From a virus (taxonomy: Duplodnaviria > Caudoviricetes), in IMG/VR virus record IMGVR_UViG_3300020576_004326, positions 22,919 through 86,918 of that record: a stretch of DNA of 64,000 nt; one strand, written 5' to 3'. Positions 742-64,000 of the stretch are shown piece by piece. The stretch's first letter is position 1. Each line of letters opens with the position of its first letter. The notes beneath the pieces were generated by a model, which saw only the letters and a program-made list of their open reading frames with translations, ran no database searches and was not told the origin of the DNA. The translations under genes and the position numbers were made by a program.

Positions 742-1039
742 AGTTCTTCCTCCGATTCCGTCGGCGCTGCTGATTAGCTGCAAGCGTCCCTACCGCGGCC
801 CGATCGTGCCCGGCAGCATCTTCGCGTGGGAGCCCGACCTCCTGCACGCCCGTACGCTCTGCCTCGTCACCGACGTTCGCGACGGGCTAGTCTACAGCAC
901 CGACCTCGACTACTCGAAGGAGGTGCACAACGACGAGTCTCGTTTCAGGGAAGCGTGCGTCCCCACGCTGTTCCAGCCGTGGCCTACCGAGAAGCCCGCG
1001 GTGGGGTCTATCCCCGACTTCGCTAGGGATTTCGCATGA
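734..1039 (+). CDS. hypothetical protein
   Basis: Start overlaps the upstream stop; stop overlaps the terL start (ATGA). Confidence 0.55.
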   Translation: MSRVLPPIPSALLISCKRPYRGPIVPGSIFAWEPDLLHARTLCLVTDVRDGLVYSTDLDYSKEVHNDESRFREACVPTLFQPWPTEKPAVGSIPDFARDFA

Positions 1040-4000
1040 GCAATCACGAAGGCAGGGGGTCGCCCGTAGACGCGACGGCCGAGACTAACTGCGGCAAGTG
1101 CGAGCTGCGCGACAAGTGCAGAGACTCGCGCAAGAGCAAGCGCTTCGCATGCACGTTCTTCGTGTTCGAAGAAGACTCGAAGAAGCTAGACGCCTCGAGC
1201 CGCGCCTTCCGCAAGATGATGCGCGAGCTAGTATCGTCGGAGACGGTGCTGTCGGACACGTACAACATCGACGACCGCGACCTCCCGCTCGCTCCGAACT
1301 ACTACCAGTGGTGCGTCGGCGAGAAGTACCTCGCCGCCAGCCCGCCGCCCTACCCGTGGCAGCTGGAGGTGGGCCTCCACCTCTTCAACGACGTGTGCCC
1401 TAACCCGAAGTGCACCGACAAGCGGTGGTACACCGAGATACCGCACGATTGCGACGTGCGCGAGATACCCGAGCGCATGTCTCTGCGCCGTCGCGGCGTC
1501 TGTCCGAAGTGCAAGAAGACGCGCCTCGACTACATAAACGAGGGCGTCGAGAAAGATTACAACTCGTATGTGGGTACCGTGGGCCAGCGGTGCGTGACGG
1601 GAGACACGCTGGTAACCACCACGCGCGGCATCACTCGCATATCCGACTGGGCTCGCGGACTTGCTCCGGGGTGGCACGAGGGGCCCTTTTTCCGTCGCGG
1701 TAGGAAGCATTCGCTGTCTGTTATCGGCGAGAACGGCAATACCCTTAGGGTATCGCGCATCTGGGTTTCTAAGCCAGAGCGCGTTCACCGCGTCACCGTA
1801 CGCGGCGGACTAGAGATAACGGGAACGGGCGACCACCCTATCATGATGCACTCCGGCTGGAAGAAGCTGAGAGACGTTCGTGCGGGAGACGTCGTTCCCG
1901 TATACTACGGCCAACGCGTGTGGGGGTCGGATAGGAAGCTGACGCCTGATCGCGCCCGGTTCTTGGGCTTCTGGGTGTCGGAAGGGTCTGGTAGCAAGAA
2001 GTCTGTACACGTCACCAACTACGACGACGAAGTGCGTGCGCTCTGTCGCGCCGAGATGGTCAGCCTGTCTCCGGGTGCAGAGATCGTCGAGCGCGCACGA
2101 GGAGGCGTCGATCCCTCTCTTGGCCTCAAGCGCTGCGTAGGCTCGAAGGACAAGCTGCTCTACGCTAGAGTCGACAAGCTAGTGGACGGGCTGTGGCGCA
2201 AGAGTGCCGACAAGGTTATACCGCGCTCCGTACTAGAGAGCCCGGAGCACGTAGTCGCGGCGTTTCTGCAGGCGCTGTTCGAGGGAGACGGCTACGCGGG
2301 TAAGCGCGGCGTAGGATATGCCTCACTCAGCAAGAAGCTAGTGATGCAGATCAAGGTGGTGCTCGCCAACATGGGCATCGTCACGAACATTCGCAAGCGC
2401 ATGTCGTGGGCCACCAACGGCACGCCCGCTCAAGTCTCCAAGCCCTACTGGTCGCTCGGTATCAGCGGACCCGCACTAGTCGCGTTCGAGGAGAGGGTAG
2501 GTTTCTTCTCGGAGCGCAAACGGGCGGCGCTGCGTCGCGCCGTCGAGCGCTTCGTCAGTCGCGAGAGTGACGTGCCCTACTGGTACGATCGGTACCCGGA
2601 GGAGATAAAGCGCGCGTACCTCGAACTGGTAGCCCGCATAGATGCAGAGTGGTCGAAGTACGAGTCTGTAGGAACCCGCGGCTACACGAACGGCTGGGTG
2701 AGGTTCCGCTACGAGGTAGCAGACTGGCGTCGCCTCGAGTCGGAAAACGTATGCCTGTCCCGCAGCCGTCTACGACGCTACTGGAATAAGCTGCGCGCGT
2801 CTTCTCGCTGGTACGACTTGTCGCCTCCTCTCCGGGCAGACCTGCTAGCGTTCCACGACGTGTACCTGCAGAGCAACTGCTACTGGACGGTAGTTAAGAA
2901 GACTGCCGTCAGCAAGAAGGCACGCAAGACCTACGACTTCTGCGTGCCCGAGCACCACAAGTTCATGGCCAACGGCCTGCTCAATCACAACAGCGGCAAG
3001 TGCATGTCGGGCTCCACGCTCGTCGCCACCGAGCGCGGCCTCGTACCCATACGCGAGGTAGAGGCCGGCGACTTCGTAGTGGTCGAGGGACGCGCGCACC
3101 GCGTGCTCGGTAAGGTGGCGTCGGGCACCAAGCCCGTGATCGAACTACGCACCAAGCGCGGCATCGTGCTCAAGCTGACTCCCGACCACAAGGTACTGGG
3201 GCCCGGAGGGTGGGTCGAGGCGAGAAACGCTAGGTCGGTGATGATCTGCGCGTCTTCTCTGCCCTGGGGCATCGAGACGTCTCTCCCTCCTGTAGACCGC
3301 AAAGAGAAGACGCTGGCCTGTGCGCTCACGCGCCTCACGCAGGAGGCGGCGCGATCCACCGTCCAGTCGATGGTCACCGAGTACTCGGTGTCGGGCACAG
3401 ACCTAGTGCTCAAGACGCGAGACTACCGCGTCGCGTCCGCCCTGCAGCAGTTCCTGCTTACGAAGAACGTGATCGTGCGCCGCGCCGTAGACCGCCTCGT
3501 GCTGTCGTCGCCGTGGGCGGCGCGCTACGCGGACCAGTTCGGCATCCCCGACCCTCGCGTCGAGTACGTGATCCGCAACGCCCCGTCCGACTACGAGTCG
3601 GTGCTGAGCAGGGCCACGTGCGAGTCGCTGTATAACACGCTGCAGACGGTCGAGGTAGTAGACCAGTGGCACGACCCCAGCACGCTGCGCACCGCCTCCG
3701 AGTATCGCAACATCTGCATGGCCGGAGAGCTCACGCGCTCGGACGCAGACGCGTGCGCCGACGCCTACGAGAAGCTGCAGCCGAAGGATGCCTTCCTACG
3801 CTTCTTGGCCGTGCAGCGCCTGCGCGCCTGCGCTCGCGCCGAAGTAGACTACGACGAGGTCGTATCTAAGGCGCCCGCCGGGCGTGAGCAGGTGTACGAC
3901 ATAGAGGTCGAAGACGTGCATCGCTTCGTCGCTAACGGCGCGGTCGTGCACAACTCGTCGGGCCTGGGGTTCATCTGGTCGTACCACACGCACACCCTGA

Positions 4001-4446
4001 TCAAGCTCAAGAACCCCAGCGCGTTCTACGGAATCAAGGCGGGCACGATCCTGCACATGAACATGATCGGCCTCACCTACACGGGCGTCAAGCAGGCCGT
4101 GTGGGACCCGTTCATGACGACGATGTCGGAGGCCCCCTGGTTCAAGTGTATAGCAGAAGGTGAACAAGTTCGCATGGCCGACGGCTCCTTGCGATCTATA
4201 CAGAACGTCCGATGCGGCGAGCGCGTTCGCACACTTGAGGGAGATTCGACAGTGGACGGTGTATTCGATAACGGTCTCAGACGTATAGTGGAGATGGAGC
4301 TGTCTAGCGGACATAAGTTGCGATTAACTGAGGATCATAAAGTTCGCTGTGTAGTTGGAGGCGAGCTTGTATGGCTACCAATTTCTAGTGTAAATGAAGA
4401 TATGATGGTAGTCATCGAAAATGAAACTGACACCGACTCACCGTAG
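1036..4446 (+). CDS. terL: terminase large subunit, N-terminal part (two cis inteins plus a split-intein N-fragment)
   Basis: Removing the inteins gives Walker A VGQR-SGK-SS; the ORF ends in an intein N-domain. Confidence 0.85.
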   Translation: MSNHEGRGSPVDATAETNCGKCELRDKCRDSRKSKRFACTFFVFEEDSKKLDASSRAFRKMMRELVSSETVLSDTYNIDDRDLPLAPNYYQWCVGEKYLAASPPPYPWQLEVGLHLFNDVCPNPKCTDKRWYTEIPHDCDVREIPERMSLRRRGVCPKCKKTRLDYINEGVEKDYNSYVGTVGQRCVTGDTLVTTTRGITRISDWARGLAPGWHEGPFFRRGRKHSLSVIGENGNTLRVSRIWVSKPERVHRVTVRGGLEITGTGDHPIMMHSGWKKLRDVRAGDVVPVYYGQRVWGSDRKLTPDRARFLGFWVSEGSGSKKSVHVTNYDDEVRALCRAEMVSLSPGAEIVERARGGVDPSLGLKRCVGSKDKLLYARVDKLVDGLWRKSADKVIPRSVLESPEHVVAAFLQALFEGDGYAGKRGVGYASLSKKLVMQIKVVLANMGIVTNIRKRMSWATNGTPAQVSKPYWSLGISGPALVAFEERVGFFSERKRAALRRAVERFVSRESDVPYWYDRYPEEIKRAYLELVARIDAEWSKYESVGTRGYTNGWVRFRYEVADWRRLESENVCLSRSRLRRYWNKLRASSRWYDLSPPLRADLLAFHDVYLQSNCYWTVVKKTAVSKKARKTYDFCVPEHHKFMANGLLNHNSGKCMSGSTLVATERGLVPIREVEAGDFVVVEGRAHRVLGKVASGTKPVIELRTKRGIVLKLTPDHKVLGPGGWVEARNARSVMICASSLPWGIETSLPPVDRKEKTLACALTRLTQEAARSTVQSMVTEYSVSGTDLVLKTRDYRVASALQQFLLTKNVIVRRAVDRLVLSSPWAARYADQFGIPDPRVEYVIRNAPSDYESVLSRATCESLYNTLQTVEVVDQWHDPSTLRTASEYRNICMAGELTRSDADACADAYEKLQPKDAFLRFLAVQRLRACARAEVDYDEVVSKAPAGREQVYDIEVEDVHRFVANGAVVHNSSGLGFIWSYHTHTLIKLKNPSAFYGIKAGTILHMNMIGLTYTGVKQAVWDPFMTTMSEAPWFKCIAEGEQVRMADGSLRSIQNVRCGERVRTLEGDSTVDGVFDNGLRRIVEMELSSGHKLRLTEDHKVRCVVGGELVWLPISSVNEDMMVVIENETDTDSP
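1591..2991 (+). mobile_element. intein 1 in terL with LAGLIDADG endonuclease (467 aa)
   Basis: Starts CVTGDT, block B TGDHP, LAGLIDADG-like FLGFWVSEG and FLQALFEGDG, ends YDFCVPEHHKFMANGLLNHN|S. Confidence 0.92.
3001..3954 (+). mobile_element. intein 2 in terL (318 aa, degenerate endonuclease region)
   Basis: Starts CMSGST, block B TPDHKV, ends VYDIEVEDVHRFVANGAVVHN|S. Confidence 0.9.
4147..4443 (+). mobile_element. split intein N-fragment (IntN, 99 aa)
   Basis: CIAEGEQV...LTEDHKV...W, followed by TAG at 4444-4446. Confidence 0.8.
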
Positions 4447-4621
4447 GCAGCGGATACTAGAAACCTTGCGATTAGCCAAAAAACACGGCTGCTAATCGAA
4501 GTCAAGAGTTGGTACACGTACAAGTGTTCCTACGAGCTTAATAGAACAAAGCGGCGCGCGGCAAAGCGCGCCGGTTTTCGCTTCATGTTTCTAGTCATGA
4601 ACAGAGATGGAACGCGCAGAG
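4447..4621 (+). pseudogene. remnant of a PD-(D/E)xK homing endonuclease between IntN and IntC
   Basis: Frame-1 translation LLIEVKSWYT...KRRAAKRAGFRFMFLVMNRDG resembles the C-terminus of ORF 62453-63688 (IYEVKSTWT...KAKACRLAGFRFVCVVLDKKG); no start codon or N-terminal part. Confidence 0.7.
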
Positions 4622-4765
4622 ATGTCTCTAGTAAAATTGAAGGACGGAAGCAGCGTATCCGTCGCCCGTCTATCGAGAAAGACTCTCGTAGGAGAAGCGC
4701 GAGTTTTTGATATAGAGGTTCGAGATCACCATAACTTTTATGCGGGTGGTATCAACGTACACAAC
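4622..4765 (+). mobile_element. split intein C-fragment (IntC, about 48 aa)
   Basis: MSLVKL...VFDIEVRDHHNFYAGGINVHN followed by Cys+1. Confidence 0.8.
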
Positions 4766-6157
4766 TGCTACCACTCGATCCTAGACGACGCCGCTCGGCG
4801 CCTGGGCGAAGATGAGCTGTACCGCATCAAAGACGGCTTCGTCTTCTACAAGCCCCCGGCCCTGTGGCTCTCGCCGTCGTCTCCCTCTCGCCGTAACCTC
4901 CGCGGCCGAACTCGCGTGTTCGCGGGCGTAGACGAAATGGGCCACTTCTCCGAGAGCACCGACAAGGTGAACATATCGGGCCTCGAGGTTTGGCGTGCTC
5001 TCACCCGCTCGCTGTCGACCGTGCGACCCGCCGTGCGCCGCCTGCGCAAGAAGGGCGTCGTCAACGTGCCGCCCGCCATCGCCGTGTCGATCTCGTCCCC
5101 CTGGGAGGTGAGCGATCCGCAGATGCAGCTCTACAACGCCGCGGAGCGCCAGGGCAGCACCTACGCCATGATGCGCCCGACCTGGGAAGCCAACCCCGAC
5201 ATCACGTTCGAAGACTTGGCCGACGAGTTCGCGCTCGATCCGGCTACCGCCTGGCGCGACTACGGCTGCCGCCCGCCCTACTCCGCCGCGTCGTTCGTCA
5301 ACGGCCTAGACCCGTTCAAGCGGTGCATCGATCGCACGCTGCGCAACGCCGTCGCCCAGCGTACCGTAGTCGTTCGACCCAAGTCGAAGAAGGAGGCCAA
5401 GAAGCTGCGCGGCATCTCGGTGTCGGCGAAGCTCAAGTTCAGGTGGGAAGACGACTCGGTCCCGAAGATCATGGCGCTCGACGCCGGCAAGCACAAGAAC
5501 GCCTTCGCGGTGTGCGTCGCGCACATCGACTCGGAGGGGCGCCTGGCCTACGACGCCTTCGTGGAGGTGCGCCCGCGGCACAACAAGCCCGTGTCGTTCA
5601 CCCGCGTGTACGAGAAGGTGCTGCTGCCGCTAGCCAAGCGCATGAACGTAGTCGTCACGATCTCGGATCGGTGGCAGCAGGAGACTATCGTAGAGAAGCT
5701 GTCGGAGGACGCCGACACGGAGCACTTCAACCATCGCCTGACGTACGGAGAGTTTCAGGCGTGGCGCGACGACCTGATCCACGAGCAGCTCGTGCTCCCG
5801 AAGCCCGAGAAGAAGGTGAAAGAGATTCTGCACGTCGAGGGTCCCGAAGAGTCGGCGTTCGACGACTGCCCCGTGTCTCAGTTCATTCGCCAGAGCATAC
5901 GCGTCGTAGACGTTCCCGGCAAGACGGTAGACAAGCCGGCGGTAGGCAACGACGACGTGTTCCGCACGGGCGTGCTGGCTCACGCCGGTGCCCAGCTCCC
6001 CGAGATAATCGAGCTACTCACGCAGGGTGAGGTGGGCCGTAAGGCCGTCGGGGGCATCGGCGCGGTGGCCACCGTAACAGGCGGCGGCAGCTCGCTCACC
6101 GTCGCGAAGGGCATCGGGGTGGCGGCCAAGGGCTCGGTGGGCGCCGTGGCGCGCTGA
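4622..6157 (+). CDS. terL: terminase large subunit, C-terminal part (IntC, Walker B and RNase H-like nuclease)
   Basis: IntC ending HN|C; Walker B FAGVDEMG; nuclease motifs IMALDAG, DRWQ, NDDVFR. Start could be 4607 or 4622. Confidence 0.85.
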   Translation: MSLVKLKDGSSVSVARLSRKTLVGEARVFDIEVRDHHNFYAGGINVHNCYHSILDDAARRLGEDELYRIKDGFVFYKPPALWLSPSSPSRRNLRGRTRVFAGVDEMGHFSESTDKVNISGLEVWRALTRSLSTVRPAVRRLRKKGVVNVPPAIAVSISSPWEVSDPQMQLYNAAERQGSTYAMMRPTWEANPDITFEDLADEFALDPATAWRDYGCRPPYSAASFVNGLDPFKRCIDRTLRNAVAQRTVVVRPKSKKEAKKLRGISVSAKLKFRWEDDSVPKIMALDAGKHKNAFAVCVAHIDSEGRLAYDAFVEVRPRHNKPVSFTRVYEKVLLPLAKRMNVVVTISDRWQQETIVEKLSEDADTEHFNHRLTYGEFQAWRDDLIHEQLVLPKPEKKVKEILHVEGPEESAFDDCPVSQFIRQSIRVVDVPGKTVDKPAVGNDDVFRTGVLAHAGAQLPEIIELLTQGEVGRKAVGGIGAVATVTGGGSSLTVAKGIGVAAKGSVGAVAR

Positions 6158-13288: not shown

Positions 13289-13364
13289 GGCCCCGTAGCT
13301 CAGCGGTACGAGCGGCTCGTTTACACCGAGAAGGTCGCAGGTTCGATTCCTGCCGGGGCCACCA
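13289..13364 (+). tRNA. tRNA-Val (anticodon UAC)
   Basis: Acceptor stem GGCCCCG/CGGGGCC, D arm GCTC/GAGC, loop TT-TAC-AC, T arm GCAGG-TTCGATT-CCTGC, encoded CCA. Confidence 0.92.
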
Positions 13365-22291: not shown

Positions 22292-24392
22292 ATGGCAAAC
22301 GGATACGAGCAGCAGTACCTCGATCTCCTCGAGACGATCATGACGAAGGGAGTTCGCAAGCGCGACCGGACGGGAGTCGGAACGACGTCTCTGTTCGGCG
22401 CCCAGCTTCGGTTCGACGTCGGCAGAGAGTTCCCTCTCCTGACGACGAAGAAGCTGTTCACGCACGCCATCATGGTGGAGCTTGAGTGGATGCTTCGCGG
22501 CCACACGAACGTCCAGTACCTGCAAGAGCGCAGATGCACCATCTGGGACGAGTGGGCAGACGAGAAGGGCGATCTGGGTCCCGTCTACGGCAAGCAGTGG
22601 CGTGAGTGGGCGCACGAAGTATGTGAAGAAGACCCACGCGGTGTCGTTAGTTCAATTTGCAGGGATGAACCCATCGACCAGATCGCGCTGGCGCTCGACC
22701 TCCTCAAGAACGACCCCTACTCTCGTCGCAACGTCGTCACGGCGTGGAACCCCGCCGACAACCCAAAGATGGCGCTGACGCCCTGCCACTGCCTGTTTCA
22801 GTTTAACTGCAGGCCTCTTTCGGTACAAGAGAAGATAACCTTACTACGCGCTCGGGGTCGAGTCTTACCCGACGCGGGCGACGCGGTATCGGGGCCGCAG
22901 TCGTCTACGGAATACCCGGCTGACCTAGGAGATGCTCCGCAGTTCTACATCGATCTGCATCTCTACCAGCGTTCGAATAATGAGCGCCTCCACTGAGTAA
23001 TCGGTGAAGCAAACTCTGCTAAACGGGGAACGGTCACCGACCCAATCCCGTGCTAAACTTCGTCCAGACGTGCTTTTAGGATTCGCGTTCAAAGTAAACT
23101 TCTCCTATAGGGGAGAAGCACGATGGCCGTGACTTACATAATAGAACACGTCGGTAGTGGCAAATTCTACGTCGGCAGCACAGGTAAACCGCATCTTAGG
23201 TTTGACCGTCATTGGCGAGCACTTAGAAGTGGTGCACACCACTGCATACGCCTTCAACGTCTGTGGAATAGATGCGCTGGTGAAGGGTTCAAGATAAAAG
23301 TCTTGCGCCGTGATTCGCTAGAACGCTGTCGTGCGTTAGAGGGGCGATACCTTTCATCGTCGAAAATACGCAATAGGTTGCTTAACAGCAGCTTATCAAT
23401 CGCGTACGGAGACACGACGGGTAATCATCCCGAGAAGCAGAAAATCATCGCGAAGCGCAGCGCTGCTGCTCGCGCCGTTAACGCCAAACTTTCACCAGAA
23501 GAGCGTGCAGCAATGCATAGACGTCCTGGTGCACAGAACGGAATGTACGGCAAGAAGCACTCTCGTAAATCTCTTGCGATGATGAGTAGAGCAAACAAAG
23601 GTAACTCGTATGCTGCGGGATCGGTACGGTCTGCAGAAACTCGCGCCAGACTATCTAAGGTCGCGCAAGAGCGAGTCGGGAAACTAAACGGGTTCTTCGG
23701 TAAGCATCATAGTGCAGAAACCAAAGAGCGCATACGTCAGAAGAAAATTGGGCACCGCCCCACCAATCTTCGTCCCGTCAAAGTAGGTAAGCAGCGCTTT
23801 GATAGCGTCGCCGATGCCGCTAGATACCTCAATGTTGTCTCCGCCACGGTACTTTACCGTATAAAGGCGCGTAGCGCCAAGTATGCTTCTTACCGCTATC
23901 TGGACGAATAAATGCCTAACGACTATCGAAACCGTTCCTATCAGGAACAGGGAGTAGAGTAGGGCCAAGCGGCTCGAAATGCAGAGGGTCCCTTCGGGAT
24001 CGTGATATAGTCTGATCTGTGCGGCAACGTACAGCAGTTCTCGAAAGAGAACGGAGACGGCTTAGCGAACCGTCTTGAACATATTGTCAGCCGACGTGTT
24101 CCTGGGCGTCCCCTTCAACATCGCCAGCTACGCCATGCTACTGATGATAATGGCGCGGTGCGCGGGGCCGAAGTACGCCGTGGGCGAGTTCGTGCACTCT
24201 TTCGGAGACGTGCACGTGTACACGAATCACGAAGAGCAGGTGCGAACCCAGCTCTCGCGCGCGCCCCGGCGCGGCCCTCGCGTGTCGCTGGCGCTCTCGG
24301 AGAACGCCAAGCCCTGGGACTTCACGCACGAGAAGGTACTAGTCGCAGACTACGCTCCGTGGCCCACTATTGCTGCACCCGTAGCAATTTAG
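22292..24392 (+). CDS. thyA: thymidylate synthase (exons 22292-22972 and 24087-24392)
   Basis: [26 protein letters not shown]|[24 protein letters not shown]. Confidence 0.95.
22973..24086 (+). ncRNA. group I intron in thyA
   Basis: 5' exon ends in U with P1 pairing GCGU|UC:GAGCGC; intron ends in G; core-like ACGACTA and GATATAGTCTG segments; splicing restores QR-SAD. Confidence 0.88.
23123..23911 (+). CDS. intron-encoded GIY-YIG homing endonuclease with NUMOD3-like repeats
   Basis: TYII...FYVGST...RF..H; GMYGKKHS and [12 protein letters not shown] repeats. Confidence 0.9.
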   Translation: MAVTYIIEHVGSGKFYVGSTGKPHLRFDRHWRALRSGAHHCIRLQRLWNRCAGEGFKIKVLRRDSLERCRALEGRYLSSSKIRNRLLNSSLSIAYGDTTGNHPEKQKIIAKRSAAARAVNAKLSPEERAAMHRRPGAQNGMYGKKHSRKSLAMMSRANKGNSYAAGSVRSAETRARLSKVAQERVGKLNGFFGKHHSAETKERIRQKKIGHRPTNLRPVKVGKQRFDSVADAARYLNVVSATVLYRIKARSAKYASYRYLDE

Positions 24393-37471: not shown

Positions 37472-37621
37472 ATGAAGCTCTACACCGCGCTAGACATACC
37501 GACGATGGCCGAGATAAACGCGAAGCGCAAGAAGTTCGTCGGCGCCAGCCTGTTCTCGGGCTGCGGAGGAGCCTCGGTCGGCATGAAGCTGGCCGGCATC
37601 GACGTGAGGTGCGTCGGATGA
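37472..37621 (+). pseudogene. orphaned original 5' end of the second CmoX-like gene (49 aa)
   Basis: MKLYTALDIPTMAEINAKRKKFVGASLFSGCGGASVGMKLAGIDVR; a second copy starts at 38077. Confidence 0.85.
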
Positions 37622-38076
37622 TCTATAGATTACCTGAGATACGAAACAAAGGCGATCATCCATTATATCGCACATGGTACGGAATGCTGCGACGGTGCAG
37701 AGATCACCCTCGCTACATGGGTAGAGTAAGCGTGTGCAAATCCTGGGCCCACCCCGAGAAGGGTTTCTCTGCCTTTGTTACATGGGCTCGAAAGGGTTAT
37801 CGCCCGGGGTTAGAGCTGGATCGTAGGAATAACGACGGCGACTACTCTCCCGATAATTGTCGGTGGGTTACGCACAAGATTAACGCCCAAAACAGAGGTG
37901 ATATAATTTGGGTAGAAGTCGGCGGAAGTCGACAAGAGCTGTTTCGTCTATGGGAAAACAGCTCACGCGTAGTATCCTACAACACAGTAAAACTGCGCTA
38001 TTACAGGGGCTGGGATGTAAAGCGTGCTCTGTCCACTCCCGCAAAACACCCAGGTGCTCCTAAGAGGGTTTCGAAC
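37618..38076 (+). CDS. HNH homing endonuclease, in frame with the downstream transferase
   Basis: LDRRNNDGDYSPDNCRW; ATG overlaps the remnant's TGA; no stop before 38077. Confidence 0.82.
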
Positions 38077-39090
38077 ATGAAGCTATACACGGCTCTCGAT
38101 ATTCCTACAATGCGCGAGATAAATGCGTTACCTAAAACCTTCGTTGCAGCGAGTTTGTTCTCTGGATGTGGAGGCTCATCCGTTGGTATTAAATTAGCTG
38201 GCGGAGACGTGCGCTACGCGTCAGAGTTCGTGCCCATCGCGGCCGACACGTACGCGGCGAACGCACCCGGCACGTACGTAGACCGCAGAGACATTCGCGA
38301 AGTGAAGCCCGAGTTCGTACTCAAGAAGTGCCGCGTGGCGAAGGGCGAACTCGACTACCTAGACGGCTCCCCGCCGTGCAAGATTTTCTCGAAGGCTTCG
38401 CTGCACACGAAGGGCAAGCGAGACGAGACGAACGTCGTGCTGTACTCGGAGGGCATCAAGCAGCGCGTAGACGACCTGTTCTTCCAGTTCGCCCGCCTGC
38501 TCAAGGGCACGCAGCCCAAAGTCTTCGTCGCCGAGAACGTCGAGGGCCTGACGGCTCAGGCCAACCGCCCCTACCTCAACGAGATATTCTCGTCGCTCCG
38601 TAAGTGCGGGTACGAGGTCGAGGCGCGCGTGCTCGACGCCTCCAAGCTGGGCGTGCCGCAGGCTCGCAAGCGCCTCATCTTCGTGGGCGTCCGCAGAGAC
38701 TTGGTGAAGCGCGGGTTCAAGCCCGCGTTCCCGAAGCCCCTCAACCGCTACATCACCGTGCAAGACGTCGTGCCCCACGCCGTTAAGATGAAGTTCGGCG
38801 GCGGTCGCGGCTACATGTCTGCGGCTCAGCCCAGCCAGACGATCACGGCGTCCGACGCCACGACCTACGAGACTGCCGACTTCTCGTGCGGAGCGTACAT
38901 CGAGCTGCCCGACGGGACGCGCCGCAAGTACAAGATCAGCGAGGCGAAGCGCGTCTTCGGCATGCCAGAAGACTTCAAGCTGCTGGGCGACTACGAGCAG
39001 CGCTTCGAGCGCCTCGGTCGCATACACGTGCCCCTATCCGTCTACTACGTCGCCAGCGCCCTGCGCGAGAACGTGCTGAGCAAGCTGTGA
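38077..39090 (+). CDS. second C5-cytosine transferase, CmoX-like
   Basis: FSGCGG, DGSPPC, ENV, QARKR; motif X ERLGRIH; AGAGG upstream of ATG. Confidence 0.88.
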   Translation: MKLYTALDIPTMREINALPKTFVAASLFSGCGGSSVGIKLAGGDVRYASEFVPIAADTYAANAPGTYVDRRDIREVKPEFVLKKCRVAKGELDYLDGSPPCKIFSKASLHTKGKRDETNVVLYSEGIKQRVDDLFFQFARLLKGTQPKVFVAENVEGLTAQANRPYLNEIFSSLRKCGYEVEARVLDASKLGVPQARKRLIFVGVRRDLVKRGFKPAFPKPLNRYITVQDVVPHAVKMKFGGGRGYMSAAQPSQTITASDATTYETADFSCGAYIELPDGTRRKYKISEAKRVFGMPEDFKLLGDYEQRFERLGRIHVPLSVYYVASALRENVLSKL

Positions 39091-53248: not shown

Positions 53249-53276
53249 GAGCGGGGCACGACGTCGTGCCCCGCTC
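53249..53276. repeat. perfect 28-bp palindrome
   Basis: GAGCGGGGCACGACGTCGTGCCCCGCTC is its own reverse complement; lies upstream of the ligase. Confidence 0.8.
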
Positions 53277-53313
53277 TTCCGTATTTCTACTGCTCACGCC
53301 CAGGAGAATTTCG

Positions 53314-53997
53314 ATGGTGAGTAAGCCTGCACCCCTCCTCAAGGTCACCACGCGCGGCTTCACGAAAGAAGACGGCGCCCGCATCGCGGCCAAGCTCTCT
53401 GCTTGGGACGTCGCCTACCACGCGGGCAAGCCCGTCGTGTCGGACGCCAAGTGGGACAAGTACCGCGACATGCTCGCGCGCGGCATGCCCGACCACCCCT
53501 ACCTCAAGAAGATCGGCGCCCCCGTCGCCAAGACGGCGAAGGGCGAACGGGCACGCTCGCGCAAAGAAGCGCTGCCCTTCACCGTCGGCTCTCTCGACAA
53601 GGTACGCCCGGCCGACCTGCCGCGCTGGATGGAGAAGCTCGCCGCCAAGTCTCCGCAGAAGTGCTGGCTCGTCTCTCCCAAGTTCGACGGCGCCAGCCTC
53701 TCGATCCGCTACGTGGACGGTCGCTTCGACCGCGCCTGGACGCGCGGAGACGGCACCGAGGGCCAAGTCGTCACCGAGGCCGCGCGCCACGTTCAGGGCG
53801 TCCTGAAGACGATGGTTCCCTGCAAGGCCTTCTCCGCCAAGGGCACGTTCGTCGTTCGCGGCGAGGTGGTCATGCACCGCAGCATCTTCGACAAGTTCTA
53901 CGCTCTAATACCAGACGATAAAATACAAGACAAGCGAGAAGAAGTAGCCCGATTAGAAAAGCTATTAGCAAAACTTAGGAAAGAAGATGAAAAATAA
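53314..53997 (+). CDS. ligA: NAD-dependent DNA ligase, N-terminal half
   Basis: GSLDK, SPKFDG (KxDG), TRGDG.EG, VRGEVVM. Confidence 0.88.
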   Translation: MVSKPAPLLKVTTRGFTKEDGARIAAKLSAWDVAYHAGKPVVSDAKWDKYRDMLARGMPDHPYLKKIGAPVAKTAKGERARSRKEALPFTVGSLDKVRPADLPRWMEKLAAKSPQKCWLVSPKFDGASLSIRYVDGRFDRAWTRGDGTEGQVVTEAARHVQGVLKTMVPCKAFSAKGTFVVRGEVVMHRSIFDKFYALIPDDKIQDKREEVARLEKLLAKLRKEDEK

Positions 53998-54493
53998 AAA
54001 AGAATTTGTAGAATACGCCATCCGCAAGGCCATAAAAGCCAAGCGCCCTGCACGTAAGTGCTTGATTTGGCCTTTCTTCCGCGACAATAACGGTCGTGCT
54101 AAGATTTGGCCCCTGAAAGGTAGTGCGGTTGAGCAGTTGGTTCATAGAACTGTATGCACAGCCCTACACGGTAAACCACCTAGAGCTAAGCCCTTAGCCC
54201 TTCACTCTTGCGGTAACGGTCACCTAGGCTGCATAGAAGGCACCCACCTTTATTGGGGCAATCATAAAGATAATTCAAGAGACATGGTAGCTCACGGTAC
54301 TACAAATACCCCGCATAATCAAGCGCGCGGCACGCGAGTTCCTCAAGCAGTTCTTACCGATCGCGAAGTTATATCTATAAGAAAACGCTCGGCTAGAGGA
54401 GAAAAGGGCTATGTTCTTGCCGCAGAATTTGGCGTAAAGAAATCCACAGTATCTCGCATCATAAATAGACGATCTTGGACACATCTGGAGTAA
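53987..54493 (+). CDS. HNH homing endonuclease splitting ligA
   Basis: CLIWP, HRTVC, LHSCGN..C...HL.WG..KDN..D, C-terminal HTH; AT-rich. Confidence 0.88.
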   Translation: MKNKKEFVEYAIRKAIKAKRPARKCLIWPFFRDNNGRAKIWPLKGSAVEQLVHRTVCTALHGKPPRAKPLALHSCGNGHLGCIEGTHLYWGNHKDNSRDMVAHGTTNTPHNQARGTRVPQAVLTDREVISIRKRSARGEKGYVLAAEFGVKKSTVSRIINRRSWTHLE

Positions 54494-54498
54494 CTTCG

Positions 54499-56217
54499 AT
54501 GACTTCAATAGTGGAGGTAGAGCGCAAGCTAGCTATCGCGCGTGCAGAACTTTCTGCAATGGAAAATCGCAGCAAATTATCTGCATATCGTACGCCGCGC
54601 AACATGGTCACCGGCCTGCTCAACCGCATCGACGCGTCGGAGGTCAAGGTAGACCTCGAGCGGTGCACGTTCATCGCGCTGTCGATCTTCCACGAAGACC
54701 GCAAGCTCGGCTGGGTCCGCCCGTTCGACGCCCACGCCGAGTGGGTGCACCTCCTGCTGTCGGGCTTCACGACCTCGACCCACCCGCAGCGCTACTCGCC
54801 CGCGCACGACAAGATCGTCGCGCTCGTGCGCGCGGGTCACGGCGGTCTCCGCCGAATGCTGCCCGTGCTGCCCGTCGAGGGTCGCCTCGGCGACCTCACG
54901 GTGCTCGACCACGTGCCGACCGCCGAGGAGGCGACGTCGATCATGCGCGCCATCTACAAGGCGGTAGACGTGCCGTGCGACGGCGTCGTCGTGCAGCCCG
55001 TCTCGAACAAGTACTGGCAGCGGCGCGGCGCTCAGCTAGAAGATCGTCCGCCGTTCATGGTAGCCGTCAAGCTCGACGCGCACGAGCAGGCCAACGCCGT
55101 CGGCAAGATCGGCTCCGTCGAGTGGAACGTGTCGAAGCGCGGGCTCCTCAAGCCGCGCCTGATCCTCGAGAAGCCGCTCAACTTCGACGGCGTCGAGGTT
55201 ACCTACGCCACCGCAAACAACGCGTCGTTCGTTCGCAAGTGGGGGCTGCGCGCGGGCCGCTCCATCAAGATGGTTCGGTCGGGAGACGTTATCCCGCGCG
55301 TCGTGGCGGTCAAGGCCGACGGCGAGTGGCACCCGCTGTCGCTTCGCAAGAAGGTCAAGGTCGGCAAGGAGGTTCGCGTCAAGCTGGTGGACGGTCCGGG
55401 CATCAAAGACGCCCGCGCCGAGCGCTCGCTCCCCACCAAGTGCCCCGCCTGCTCCAGCAAGCTGCGCTGGACGCCGAAGGGCACAGACCTCGAGTGCATG
55501 AACGGCGACTGCGAGTCGCGACGCGACAGGTCGGTTGCGTCGTTCTTCCGCACGCTAGGCGTAGACGACGTGGCGTCTGGCACGATCGGGCACCTCATCG
55601 AGGCCGGCATGGACACGGTGCCGAAGATTCTGCGCGGCGCCACCGTCAAGGCGCTGCGTCGCCTTGAGAACTACGGAGACAAGAAGGCGGCGCTCGTGTC
55701 GTCGGCCATCGCGGGCGCGCTCAAGGACAAGCCGCTCGCGACGGTGATGCACGCCAGCGGCGTATTCTCTAGCTCCGAGTTCGCGCTCGGCAGTACCCGC
55801 CTGCAGGCGATAGTCGACCACGTGGGCGCCGGCGGCGTAGCTCGCGGCGGCGACGCGGCACTTCGCCGCAAGCTGGCGACGCTGTCGGGTCTGGGCAAGG
55901 CGGGCCTCGACCTCTTCCTCAAGCGGCTGCCGGCTTGGCGCAAGTTCTACGCCGACGTATCCGACATGCACGAAGAGTCGAGCGGCCCCAAGACGCTCAA
56001 GGGCGTGCGCGTAGCCTTCACGGGTTTCCGCGATGCCGAAGCCGAGAAGTACGTGCTCCAGCACGGAGGCTCTACGGGCGGCGTGAGTAAGAACACGACG
56101 GTGCTGTTCGCAGCGGCGCTGTCGTCGGGGAAGGCTAAGAAGGCCGACGCCCTCGACATACCCGTAGTCGCCAAGGACAAGATGTGGGCTTGGCTCAAGA
56201 AGCGCGGAGAGAAGTGA
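54499..56217 (+). CDS. ligA: NAD-dependent DNA ligase, C-terminal half
   Basis: GGAG RBS plus ATG; TPRN..TG.L, DGVVV, VAVK, SGDVIPRV, CPAC...C Zn finger, HhH repeats, BRCT (VAFTG). Confidence 0.88.
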   Translation: MTSIVEVERKLAIARAELSAMENRSKLSAYRTPRNMVTGLLNRIDASEVKVDLERCTFIALSIFHEDRKLGWVRPFDAHAEWVHLLLSGFTTSTHPQRYSPAHDKIVALVRAGHGGLRRMLPVLPVEGRLGDLTVLDHVPTAEEATSIMRAIYKAVDVPCDGVVVQPVSNKYWQRRGAQLEDRPPFMVAVKLDAHEQANAVGKIGSVEWNVSKRGLLKPRLILEKPLNFDGVEVTYATANNASFVRKWGLRAGRSIKMVRSGDVIPRVVAVKADGEWHPLSLRKKVKVGKEVRVKLVDGPGIKDARAERSLPTKCPACSSKLRWTPKGTDLECMNGDCESRRDRSVASFFRTLGVDDVASGTIGHLIEAGMDTVPKILRGATVKALRRLENYGDKKAALVSSAIAGALKDKPLATVMHASGVFSSSEFALGSTRLQAIVDHVGAGGVARGGDAALRRKLATLSGLGKAGLDLFLKRLPAWRKFYADVSDMHEESSGPKTLKGVRVAFTGFRDAEAEKYVLQHGGSTGGVSKNTTVLFAAALSSGKAKKADALDIPVVAKDKMWAWLKKRGEK

Positions 56218-62284: not shown

Positions 62285-62452
62285 ATGCGTGAGCAGATCA
62301 TAGCGCTCCTCGAGTCGCTGCCGCCAGACAGGAAGCTGTCGGTAGGAGACAGGGAGGCCAAGATAGTCTGCCCGAACCCGGAGCACGCGGGGGGCAACGA
62401 GGCGAACCCCTCGTTCGGCATCTGCATCGAGGAGGGGCCCAAGCTGGGCTAG
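62285..62452 (+). pseudogene. orphaned original 5' end of primase (55 aa)
   Basis: MREQIIALLESLP...CPNPEHAGGNEANPSF; a second copy starts at 63738. Confidence 0.8.
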
Positions 62453-63688
62453 TTATGCACGTTCTAGTATCAATCTTTTATAGTACGATAGACTCTTACG
62501 AAGTCCTGCGCACAGCAATATCTTTCCTTTCTTATCTAGTACGACGCACACGAATCTAAAACCGGCAAGGCGACACGCCTTCGCCTTCGCTAGCGTTTTC
62601 GACCACATATAAGGGAATGTCCATGTAGATTTTACCTCATAGATCGTCTTGTCCACAACGGCATCAGGGAAGTAGCGCCGTTTGCGCCCTCGATACTTGT
62701 ACGATACGGGTCGCACCCTATCACCAGATAGAACACGTTTAGGTCCGTGACGCCTAACGAGTTTTCGCAGAAGCGGCAGCTCGTATCCTTGATAGACGAA
62801 TGTTACACCCGCAATCACGGCGATCTTTGATGACTTCATCGATTTTTGCTGTCGCGTTAGTATCTCGACACTGTGCATAGGCGTGTCTACGCCGTAATTC
62901 TTCTGTAACGTCTTTACATACCTACTACGTATGGTTTTAGATTGGTGCGGGTAATCTACACCATAATTCTTCTTCAGCGTAGCTTTCGCTTTGCGCTGTA
63001 CGATTTCCGACTTTCTTGGATGGTCAACGCCTAACCTAGCAACGCAAGTGTCGCGATAGCGCTGCTTCACTTTTGGAACGCACATCACAGATTTGAAGCC
63101 GTATCGCTCCAAGCACGTCTTCTTCGTCTTTTCTGCGATGCTCTCATTGGCGCATGTTGCGCAGCAAAATCTACGGTATCCCCTTTCGAGCGTTCCAAAG
63201 TTAGTAACATCTTCGCATTTCTCGCACCGACCCACTCGGCGGTCAACGTACATGTGATAGATCACTTGCTTCGGACGAACCCTGAGACGTTCTGCTATAC
63301 GAACGATCTTTTTCCACCGATCGCGTCGGCCAACTTTCTGGTTTAGACCGCGTGGGTCGACTCGTCTGATGAACAATTTTTCAAGCTCTTCGATGAAAGG
63401 CAGATGAGGCCGGGACCGATTTGGTTTTCTACGCGAGACGCCCCTGTTCGCACATTTATTTGAGCAGAACTTCTTGAATCCTTTCTTATATCCTAAGAAT
63501 CGCGTATCTTGTCCGCAGATCAGACATACACCGTGTTTATTTCCCATAGCCAAGTAAAGATTCTTAGAAAGACTCGGACCTTGGATTTTATCAAATAGCC
63601 GGGGTTCCAATCTTTTTACGACCGCAGTCAAGTTTCTGCCACGGATGTCCCCTACGTTTAGAACCTTCTGTAACTCGGCGTAGCGCAT
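62453..63688 (-). CDS. putative homing endonuclease (K..YG repeats plus PD-(D/E)xK domain)
   Basis: GGAGGA RBS; Cys clusters; KTCLERYG/KKNYGVD repeats; YFPD...IYEVKST; AT-rich. Confidence 0.8.
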   Translation of the reverse strand: MRYAELQKVLNVGDIRGRNLTAVVKRLEPRLFDKIQGPSLSKNLYLAMGNKHGVCLICGQDTRFLGYKKGFKKFCSNKCANRGVSRRKPNRSRPHLPFIEELEKLFIRRVDPRGLNQKVGRRDRWKKIVRIAERLRVRPKQVIYHMYVDRRVGRCEKCEDVTNFGTLERGYRRFCCATCANESIAEKTKKTCLERYGFKSVMCVPKVKQRYRDTCVARLGVDHPRKSEIVQRKAKATLKKNYGVDYPHQSKTIRSRYVKTLQKNYGVDTPMHSVEILTRQQKSMKSSKIAVIAGVTFVYQGYELPLLRKLVRRHGPKRVLSGDRVRPVSYKYRGRKRRYFPDAVVDKTIYEVKSTWTFPYMWSKTLAKAKACRLAGFRFVCVVLDKKGKILLCAGLRKSLSYYKRLILERA

Positions 63689-63737
63689 CAAATCCTCCAC
63701 TTGCCTTCTAAACCCTATACAAATTGGTTGGAGTCGA

Positions 63738-64000
63738 ATGAGAGAAAGAATACTTGCCCTCCTAGAATCTCTACCTGCTGATCGCCGCGTTGATGTACGG
63801 GGAGATTCGGTCTGGCTCGTATGCCCAAATCCAGAGCATGCCGGCGGCAACGAAAACACACCATCATTTAGCATTTCACTGAGCGATTCTAAGATGGGGA
63901 TGTCTCATTGCCACGGATGCGGCGCCGGTGGCGGCTGGAAGACTACGTGCAAGCTGCTGGGCTTCACGGGCGGCGCCAAGTCGCTGCAGGTTAAGCGGCC
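63738..64000 (+). CDS. DNA primase, N-terminal zinc-binding domain (runs off the window)
   Basis: CPNPEH...PSF...CHGCGAGG CHC2-type Zn motif; GGAG RBS. Confidence 0.7.
   Translation, partial: MRERILALLESLPADRRVDVRGDSVWLVCPNPEHAGGNENTPSFSISLSDSKMGMSHCHGCGAGGGWKTTCKLLGFTGGAKSLQVKR

What the first reader, a model, noticed from the sequence alone, without database searches (positions are those of the whole stretch)
53905..54590. DNA ligase split by an HNH gene, with a heptad-repeat helix added to each half (possible zipper reassembly)
Seen: ligA is cut between VRGEVVM...FDKFYA and YRTPRN by an AT-rich insert of about 0.69 kb. The insert adds a tail to the N-half (KIQDKREEVARLEKLLAKLRKE; a/d positions I,K,V,L,L,L). 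It also gives the C-half a new RBS, an ATG and a head (SIVEVERKLAIARAELSAMENR; a/d positions I,V,L,A,L,M). Both additions use the insert's AT-rich codons. No intein termini or group I core sequences are visible. Inference: the element carries a two-part antiparallel coiled coil that rejoins the host enzyme non-covalently, a way to stay neutral other than RNA or protein splicing. Endonuclease-split genes are known (Aeh1 nrdA/mobE, T4 genes 39/60), but I know of no element-borne dimerisation helices.
Basis: partly seen in the sequence, partly recalled or inferred. Interest (0 to 1): 0.85.

Follow-up and report, generated by a model that had tools for sequence, protein, structure and literature searches.

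The report
Endonuclease-split phage ligase with helical tails
A selfish HNH endonuclease gene has cut a phage NAD-dependent DNA ligase gene into two separately translated halves, and it carries two short helix-forming extensions that probably help the halves re-join without splicing; a phage ribonucleotide reductase is a tested precedent, so this is a new example, not a new principle.

Summary
ligA is split into an N-half (53314-53997) and a C-half (54499-56217) by a 168-aa HNH gene (53987-54493). The three ORFs are tightly packed, with only 5 nt non-coding. Ten uninterrupted relatives have 12-17 residues where the window has 59.

New here: a second phage (L015) has ligase exons only about 80% identical in DNA (dS 0.56-0.80), yet carries a 727-nt block (53882-54608) that is 100% identical. 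The tails therefore travel with the endonuclease.

One correction: only 12 residues of the C-half head are new. The rest of that helix is the ligase's own linker, recoded in AT-rich codons.

An intron is unlikely. There is no Rfam hit and no excess RNA structure, whereas the thyA intron in the same genome scores on both. An intein is excluded by in-frame stops.

AlphaFold2 predicts both extensions as confident helices, and a mini-construct folds as an antiparallel hairpin. The heptad statistics alone are weak (p 0.02-0.24).

Crona et al. 2011 (PMC3045599) showed that element-derived tails are essential for the mobE-split Aeh1 NrdA. Two-subunit phage LigA is also known (T5, PR1), split elsewhere. 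Activity of the halves is untested.

Verdict: a new variant of a known kind, of moderate interest.

The parts
53314..53904 (+). ligA N-half, native GC-rich part: domain Ia plus the first half of the nucleotidyltransferase domain (motif I lysine, motif III). Gene callers use the start at 53314; a GTG at 53266 is also open.
   Evidence: Pfam PF01653 2e-17 and phrog_3869 2e-37. The invariant K/D/G and R/E columns are present. Called as 227 aa in other assemblies.
53905..53997 (+). Element-borne C-terminal tail of the N-half: 30 codons plus TAA, A-rich. It starts with a proline turn followed by a predicted 27-residue helix. Its last codons hold the HNH ribosome-binding site and overlap the HNH start.
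   Evidence: Absent from uninterrupted relatives. 100% identical in L015. AF2 helix 201-228 with pLDDT 84-95.
53987..54493 (+). Free-standing HNH (HNH_3-type) homing endonuclease gene with a C-terminal helix-turn-helix, 168 aa, in a different frame from the ligase.
   Evidence: phrog_59 1e-20 plus weak HTH Pfam hits. Relatives carry PF13392 and sit between genes in other phages.
54486..54534 (+). Restart module for the C-half: GGAG (54486-54489) inside the end of the HNH ORF, ATG at 54499 five bases after the HNH stop, and 12 new codons that extend the ligase linker helix towards the N-terminus.
   Evidence: Sequence, alignment with the intact allele, AF2 helix 399-422.
54535..54590 (+). Ligase linker (the second half of the helix after motif III, plus a loop) written in AT-rich codons. 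It is part of the mobile block.
   Evidence: Aligns to the linker of P0002 and of E. coli LigA. Third codon positions are AT-rich. Identical in L015.
54591..56217 (+). ligA C-half, native GC-rich part: the rest of the nucleotidyltransferase domain (motifs IV and V), the OB fold, the Cys4 zinc finger, HhH and BRCT.
   Evidence: Pfam PF03120 and PF00533. Model matches LigA structures at Z 25-26.5. Invariant columns are kept.
53882..54608 (+). Block 100% identical between this phage and L015, while the flanking ligase DNA is about 80% identical. This is the mobile cassette plus short co-converted flanks.
   Evidence: Sliding identity and list of mismatches. Flank dS is 0.56-0.80 against 0 differences in 727 nt.

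Best explanation
A free-standing HNH homing endonuclease cassette sits in frame inside the helix that follows motif III of the ligase nucleotidyltransferase domain. The cassette carries everything needed to turn one gene into three translationally coupled ORFs:
- a 30-residue tail and a stop for the N-half;
- the endonuclease gene;
- a ribosome-binding site, an ATG and 12 new residues for the C-half;
- a recoded copy of the ligase linker, which probably also protects the occupied allele from cleavage.

The cassette moves between related phages by homing (shown). There is no splicing (well supported). The two half-proteins each contribute part of the active site. I infer that they reassemble non-covalently, and that the tail and the head form an antiparallel helix pair at the break that stabilises or orients the reassembled domain.
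For: - Anatomy and packing.
- Extensions absent from 10 intact relatives.
- Cassette identical in a phage whose ligase exons are about 80% identical, with dN/dS about 0.23 in the exons.
- Same arrangement in at least 4 further assemblies.
- All invariant ligase residues present in both halves.
- The read-through model reproduces the LigA adenylation and OB fold (Z 25-26.5, rmsd 2.5-2.7 A over about 245 residues).
- Both extensions are helices with pLDDT 82-95 although the alignment does not cover them.
- In a 241-residue mini-construct they keep pLDDT above 90. The best structural matches are antiparallel two-helix coiled coils, with rmsd 2.5-3.2 A over 62-73 residues.
- No group I signal, against a positive control in the same genome.
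- Experimental precedent for essential element-derived tails: PMC3045599.
Against: - There are no activity, RNA or protein data.
- The cassette arrived very recently (0 differences in 727 nt), so intact half-genes do not prove function.
- The heptad and amphipathicity statistics are weak.
- Both extensions have a net charge near zero, unlike the oppositely charged Aeh1 tails.
- In the AF2 models the two helices were joined by a 165-residue junk linker in one chain, which favours packing. I could not inspect coordinates or PAE.
- The new part of the C-head has only 12 residues against a 27-residue partner helix.
- In Aeh1 the tails were not needed for the two fragments to bind each other.
- The phage also encodes an RNA-ligase-family protein (PF09414), and hosts have LigA. 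The ligase may therefore be dispensable.
Confidence: 0.55

Rival explanations
1. Recent inactivation. The endonuclease drove itself into a dispensable ligase gene, the halves are inactive, and the tails are fortuitous read-through of the endonuclease leader plus a chance restart.
For: - The cassette is identical in two diverged phages, so it arrived too recently for decay to show.
- A 30-codon open frame is not rare at this composition (p=0.11).
- The heptad statistics are weak.
- Another ligase-family gene lies nearby.
- A relative's ligase carries an in-frame stop.
Against: - The restart is precise: GGAG, then ATG in the ligase frame 5 nt after the HNH stop.
- The recoded linker keeps the ligase frame and ligase-like residues.
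- Other endonuclease insertions in this genome come with a way of keeping the target gene readable: an intron in thyA, inteins, and a duplicated 5' end in the methylase.
- The arrangement persists in at least 6 assemblies of two lineages.
Confidence: 0.25
2. The split ligase works, but by simple fragment complementation of the large intradomain interface. The tails are passive leftovers, or serve solubility or HNH expression.
For: - In Aeh1 the tails were not needed for heterodimer formation.
- The break lies within one compact domain with a large buried interface.
- The tail codons double as the HNH ribosome-binding region.
Against: AF2 gives high confidence to both helices and packs them together. 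A proline turn sits exactly at the break, and the C-head extends an existing helix.
Confidence: 0.15
3. The insert is removed by splicing: a group I intron carrying the HNH ORF, or a split intein.
For: [quoted passage not shown] This genome has an intron and inteins elsewhere.
Against: - Only 5 nt are non-coding.
- There is no Intron_gpI hit at E<=10. The thyA intron gives E=0.036 with the conserved core.
- Folding z-scores are +0.14 and +0.22, against -2.3 for the thyA intron flanks.
- No boundary that restores the native junction has U before the 5' site and G at the 3' end.
- The ligase frame has many stops across the insert.
- The extensions, 30 and 12 residues, are far too short for intein halves and lack the terminal nucleophile and Asn.
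Confidence: 0.04

Closest known systems
Aeromonas phage Aeh1 nrdA-a / mobE / nrdA-b (Friedrich 2007; Crona 2011, PMC3045599)
   Same: - A free-standing homing endonuclease splits an enzyme gene into two ORFs.
- AT-rich, element-derived C- and N-terminal tails are absent from intact homologues.
- The active site is composite.
- There is no splicing.
   Different: - The target is the NAD-ligase nucleotidyltransferase domain, not RNR.
- The endonuclease is an HNH_3 type with an HTH.
- The tails here are predicted helices that pair antiparallel and are near neutral. They are not oppositely charged.
- Here the tails are shown to travel with the cassette between two phages.
- Nothing has been tested biochemically here.
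T4 topoisomerase gp39/gp60 split by mobA
   Same: A gene is split at an endonuclease insertion, with tail-like extensions that Crona et al. proposed to aid assembly.
   Different: Gene 60 also needs ribosomal bypassing. No such gap exists here.
Two-subunit NAD ligase of T5-like phages (T5 ligA/ligB; PR1 heterodimeric ligase, PDB 9HU3/9I5I)
   Same: A phage LigA made from two polypeptides.
   Different: The T5 break lies between domains, after the OB fold, and no endonuclease is present today. Here the break is inside the catalytic domain. A relative (L014) has a GIY-YIG gene exactly at the T5-type break.
Group I intron with a homing endonuclease ORF (T4 td type; thyA of this same genome)
   Same: An endonuclease gene sits inside a conserved enzyme gene and spreads by homing.
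   Different: The thyA element has about 290 nt of structured non-coding RNA with a recognisable core. The ligase cassette has none.
Fractured genes with split inteins (Dassa 2009, PMC2677866)
   Same: The gene halves are separated by an endonuclease gene, and their products reassociate through element-borne peptides.
   Different: There the peptides are intein halves that ligate the exteins covalently. Here they are too short and lack the intein motifs.

Membership tests
NAD-dependent DNA ligase (LigA) | Adenylation-domain motifs I, III, IV and V, an OB fold, a Cys4 zinc finger and BRCT | tested here: met
   Pfam hits. Invariant K, D, G, R, E, D/G and K columns are kept across 64 sequences. 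Fold match to LigA structures at Z 25-26.5. The motifs are divided between the two ORFs.
Free-standing homing endonuclease cassette | Endonuclease ORF of a known homing family | tested here: met
   phrog_59 HNH 1e-20. Homologues carry PF13392. Pfam itself gave only HTH hits at E<0.01.
Free-standing homing endonuclease cassette | Presence/absence polymorphism at one site among related genes, with foreign composition | tested here: met
   Absent in P0002-P0011 and present in the window and L015. GC is 42-50% against 66%.
Free-standing homing endonuclease cassette | Recent lateral movement: the cassette is far more similar than its flanks | tested here: met
   727 nt at 100% identity against about 80% in the flanks. 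Flank dS is 0.56-0.80.
Free-standing homing endonuclease cassette | Cleaves the empty allele near the insertion site | not testable with these tools
   Needs an enzyme assay on an HNH-free ligase allele.
Genes-in-pieces with element-derived assembly tails (Aeh1 NrdA type) | Target gene split into two translated ORFs with no splicing | tested here: inconclusive
   Sequence evidence argues against an intron or intein. RNA and protein data are lacking.
Genes-in-pieces with element-derived assembly tails (Aeh1 NrdA type) | Unique tails at the break that are absent from intact homologues and have the element's composition | tested here: met
Genes-in-pieces with element-derived assembly tails (Aeh1 NrdA type) | Tails required for activity or assembly | not testable with these tools
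   Only an AF2 indication of helix pairing is available.
Group I intron | Conserved catalytic core (P3-P9, P7) | tested here: inconclusive
   No Rfam hit at E<=10. The thyA intron in the same genome scores E=0.036. Rfam does not cover all subgroups.
Group I intron | Structured non-coding RNA flanking the ORF, with U before the 5' site and G at the 3' end | tested here: not met
   Only 5 nt are non-coding. Folding z is +0.14 and +0.22, against -2.3 in the control. The junction bases are incompatible.
Intein / split intein | In-frame HINT domain, or halves of about 100 and 35 residues, with a nucleophile at +1 and a terminal Asn | tested here: not met
   The ligase frame has many stops across the insert. 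The extensions are 30 and 12 residues, begin with Leu, end with Ala, and the next residue is Ile.
T5-type heterodimeric LigA | Break between the OB fold and the HhH/BRCT module | tested here: not met
   The break here lies in the helix after motif III. T5 ligA has 323 aa and ligB 259 aa.

The most novel reading that the evidence does not exclude
The cassette is a self-contained, portable 'split-and-zip' module: an endonuclease gene, a pair of antiparallel heterodimerising helices, a translational restart and a recoded target segment. It evolved so that a free-standing endonuclease can colonise the interior of a catalytic domain without a ribozyme or an intein. On this reading the helices are necessary for reassembly of the ligase, and perhaps sufficient for reassembly of other split proteins.
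Probability: 0.3. Interest if true: 0.75.

Novelty: new variant of a known kind. Interest (0 to 1): 0.55.

Why it matters
Only one endonuclease-split gene (Aeh1 nrdA) has been shown to rely on element-derived tails. A 2023 survey still cites it as the sole case of a split gene that works as two peptides.

This locus adds four things:
- a second target enzyme;
- a break inside a catalytic domain;
- tails with a simple, predictable structure, namely an antiparallel helix pair;
- direct sequence evidence that the tails are cargo of the mobile cassette, not of the host gene.

If the helices prove necessary, assembly tails would look like a general third route, besides introns and inteins, by which endonuclease genes stay harmless. 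The locus would also offer a small natural split-enzyme tag. The same 87-kb genome uses an intron, inteins, duplicated gene starts and tails side by side, which makes it a compact system for comparing these strategies.

Tried and rejected
- Rfam in E-value mode over the insert found nothing relevant. The whole window at gathering threshold gave only a tRNA.
- Megablast against phage records found no match.
- Phage ligases whose hits were annotated 'ligase | hypothetical protein' (phiXF1, BRkr, Goslar) turned out to be intact genes overlapping a neighbour, not split.
- The closest HNH relatives are at most 45% identical, lie between genes next to capsid or tail genes, and none is in a ligase.
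- Scans of IMG/VR with the HNH protein and with the C-half, and exact-pattern scans of IMG/VR and JGI metagenomes with 40 nt of the tail, found no further copies.
- Hydrophobic-moment and heptad permutation tests did not give strong support.
- Charge complementarity of the Aeh1 type is absent, by my own count.
- I considered that the 12 new C-head residues are a degenerate recoded copy of the last residues of the N-half helix. The resemblance is too slight to claim.
- Model coordinates and PAE are not exposed by the tools. Helix contacts could only be read indirectly, from structural matches of the mini-model.
Full report
**1. What is there**

The window is the 3' 64 kb of an 86.9-kb IMG/VR viral record with 61% GC. 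Three ORFs lie head to tail on the + strand at 53266-56217:
- An N-terminal ligase fragment. It is open from 53266, and gene callers in other assemblies start it at 53314, giving 227 aa.
- A 168-aa ORF in another frame (53987-54493).
- A 572-aa C-terminal ligase fragment that starts at ATG 54499.

The stop of the first ORF (53995-53997) overlaps the start of the second. The stop of the second is followed after 5 nt by the ATG of the third, and GGAG lies 9 nt upstream of that ATG. GC falls from about 66% to 42-50% between 53900 and 54590.

Pfam and PHROGs assign ORF 1 to the NAD-ligase adenylation domain and ORF 3 to the OB and BRCT parts of the same enzyme. ORF 2 matches HNH endonucleases (phrog_59, 1e-20) and has a weak C-terminal helix-turn-helix. 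The basic observation is therefore correct.

**2. Where exactly the gene is broken**

A search with the C-half found ten full-length, uninterrupted relatives (P0002-P0011, 41-67% identical). In the alignment they have 12-17 residues between the conserved helix after motif III and the conserved Pro-Arg-Asn motif. The window has 30 + 29 residues there.

I aligned the DNA to the locus of the closest intact relative (L002). Native sequence stops after the Ala codon at 53902-53904, and ligase-homologous sequence resumes at 54535. The insert proper is therefore 53905-54534, which is 630 nt or 210 codons, in frame.

The next 56 nt (54535-54590) still encode the ligase linker, but with A or T at most third codon positions. 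An alignment of P0002 to E. coli LigA places the break in the middle of the short helix that follows motif III. From memory of the published R200/R208 numbering, this is between E186 and D187.

The N-half keeps the motif I lysine and motif III. The C-half keeps the Arg residues after the break, motifs IV and V, and all downstream domains. All columns that are invariant across 64 ligases are present. As in the Aeh1 reductase, the active site is composite.

Consequently the new residues are the 30-residue tail of the N-half and only 12 residues at the head of the C-half.

**3. The extensions belong to the mobile element**

The same arrangement occurs at 99.9% identity in at least four other assemblies (L003-L006).

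More telling, a search with the N-half found P0197, from a different phage (L015). Its ligase body has diverged, but its 30-residue tail is identical. At the DNA level the ligase exons of the two phages are about 80% identical, with dS 0.56-0.80 and dN/dS about 0.23. In contrast, 53882-54608 shows no difference in 727 nt.

The identical block contains the tail, the HNH gene, the restart, the new head, the recoded linker and about 20 nt of each flank. The cassette therefore moved recently between diverged genomes, as expected for homing with short co-conversion tracts. The tails and the recoded linker are its cargo.

The recoded linker probably also makes the occupied allele a poor substrate for the endonuclease; that is an inference.

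**4. Not an intron, not an intein**

*Intron.*
- Only 5 nt of the insert are non-coding.
- Rfam in permissive mode finds no group I signal.
- The genome supplies a positive control. thyA (22292-22996 and 24075-24392) is interrupted by an I-TevI-like GIY-YIG ORF flanked by about 290 nt of non-coding RNA.
  - This control gives an Intron_gpI hit at E=0.036 with the conserved core.
  - Its flanks fold significantly better than shuffles (z -2.33 and -2.30). The ligase insert flanks give z +0.14 and +0.22.
- No sliding of the junction that restores the native protein puts U before the 5' site and G at the 3' end.

*Intein.* The ligase frame has many stops across the insert. The two extensions are far too short for split-intein halves and lack the terminal residues such halves need.

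I put splicing at about 4%. ICP1 phages show that HNH-containing introns can be missed without RNA data.

**5. Do the helices pair?**

Sequence statistics are lukewarm:
- The best heptad register puts 5 of 7 a/d positions of the tail on large hydrophobic residues (p=0.02). The head gives p=0.14-0.24.
- Hydrophobic moments are not significant.
- A 30-codon open frame at this A-rich composition has p=0.11.
- Both extensions are close to neutral, by my count, unlike the Aeh1 tails.

Because the two halves share a frame, I could fold a read-through of 53314-55338 with the stops read as Gly or Ser, using a 64-sequence alignment. In that model:
- The ligase parts reproduce LigA adenylation and OB structures (Z 25-26.5, rmsd 2.5-2.7 A over about 245 residues).
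- The out-of-frame HNH stretch is disordered (pLDDT below 50).
- The tail (helix 201-228) and the head plus linker (helix 399-422) have pLDDT 82-95, although only the query has residues in the new parts.

A 241-residue mini-construct (53881-54603, single sequence) keeps both helices above pLDDT 90. Its best matches among 48,161 PDB chains are antiparallel two-helix coiled coils and designed hairpins, with rmsd 2.5-3.2 A over 62-73 residues and Z 7.2-8.0. Examples are 8yq5_E, 3tkl_B, 6dlc_A, 2ic9_A and 1cxz_B. I use these matches only as a readout of geometry: the model packs the two helices antiparallel.

Caveats:
- The helices were in one chain, joined by a junk linker.
- AF2 tends to pack amphipathic helices.
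- I could not see coordinates or PAE.
- The pairing register in the full enzyme is unresolved. The new head has 12 residues and the tail helix 27.

**6. What is known**

Crona et al. 2011 (PMC3045599) described them:
- In phage Aeh1, mobE splits nrdA, and AT-rich tails that arose with the insertion are present on the mature fragments.
- Deleting the tails lowers activity about 2000-fold.
- The tails are not needed for the two fragments to bind each other, but they are needed for the dimer of heterodimers.
- The authors predicted similar tails on T4 gp39/gp60 and on other fragmented genes.

Two-polypeptide phage LigA is also known. T5 has ligA (323 aa) and ligB (259 aa), and PDB 9HU3/9I5I is titled 'PR1 phage heterodimeric DNA ligase'. 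That break lies after the OB fold, between domains.

I found no report of a ligase split within the adenylation domain, or of helical tails on an endonuclease-split gene. The paper library is incomplete.

**7. Verdict**

*Shown:* a mobile HNH cassette that carries both extensions, a restart and a recoded linker has split ligA inside its catalytic domain and has moved between two phages.

*Well supported:* there is no splicing.

*Inferred:* the halves reassemble, and the extensions form an antiparallel helix pair that helps.

The main rival is that the ligase was simply knocked out very recently, because the cassette is too young for decay to be visible. Against this stand three points: the precise restart, the frame-preserving recoded linker, and the fact that other endonuclease insertions I examined in this genome keep their target genes readable.

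This is a new variant of a known kind. Interest is moderate (0.55).

Noticed in passing
window 22292-24392: thyA is interrupted after the conserved Tyr-Gln-Arg-Ser motif by a group I intron (about 22997-24074) that carries an I-TevI-like GIY-YIG/NUMOD3 ORF (23123-23911). There is a sub-threshold Intron_gpI hit (E=0.036) with a canonical P7 region, and the flanks are significantly structured.
   Followed up: partly
window 37472-39090: In a C5 DNA methylase gene, a 49-aa GC-rich orphan start (37472-37621) is followed by a 493-aa ORF. In that ORF an endonuclease-like domain runs without a stop into an AT-rich second copy of the same gene start and then the rest of the methylase. This is a different way of keeping a target gene whole.
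   Followed up: partly
window 1036-4446: An 1136-aa ORF has intein splicing-domain, LAGLIDADG and Hint hits. A low-GC island at 4143-4862 separates it from the next ORF.
   Followed up: no
whole record G000 (86.9 kb): At least 14 low-GC islands (GC 42-53% against 61% overall). Most hold endonuclease-like ORFs, so the genome is unusually crowded with homing elements.
   Followed up: partly
L014:2-2001: In a roughly 50%-identical relative the ligase is split right after the OB fold by a GIY-YIG gene. That gene's ORF is fused in frame to the zinc-finger/HhH/BRCT part (P0014). The breakpoint is the same as in the T5 ligA/ligB pair, which hints that the T5-type two-subunit ligase began as an endonuclease insertion.
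   Followed up: partly
L013:2-1348: Another relative's ligase has a single in-frame stop inside the adenylation/OB boundary region. The gene caller restarts at a Met 27 codons later (P0012). This may be a pseudogene, a sequencing error or a read-through stop.
   Followed up: no
L003, equivalent to window 54406: One assembly of the same phage has a 1-nt deletion in a G run of the HNH ORF. It would frameshift the helix-turn-helix end, while both ligase halves are unchanged. This may be the start of endonuclease decay or an assembly error.
   Followed up: no
window 62285-63874: A 55-aa orphan ORF abuts a minus-strand 472-aa ORF with a DUF7487 hit (1e-35) in a low-GC island.
   Followed up: no
window 13289-13361: A single tRNA gene, the only Rfam hit at gathering threshold in the window.
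   Followed up: no
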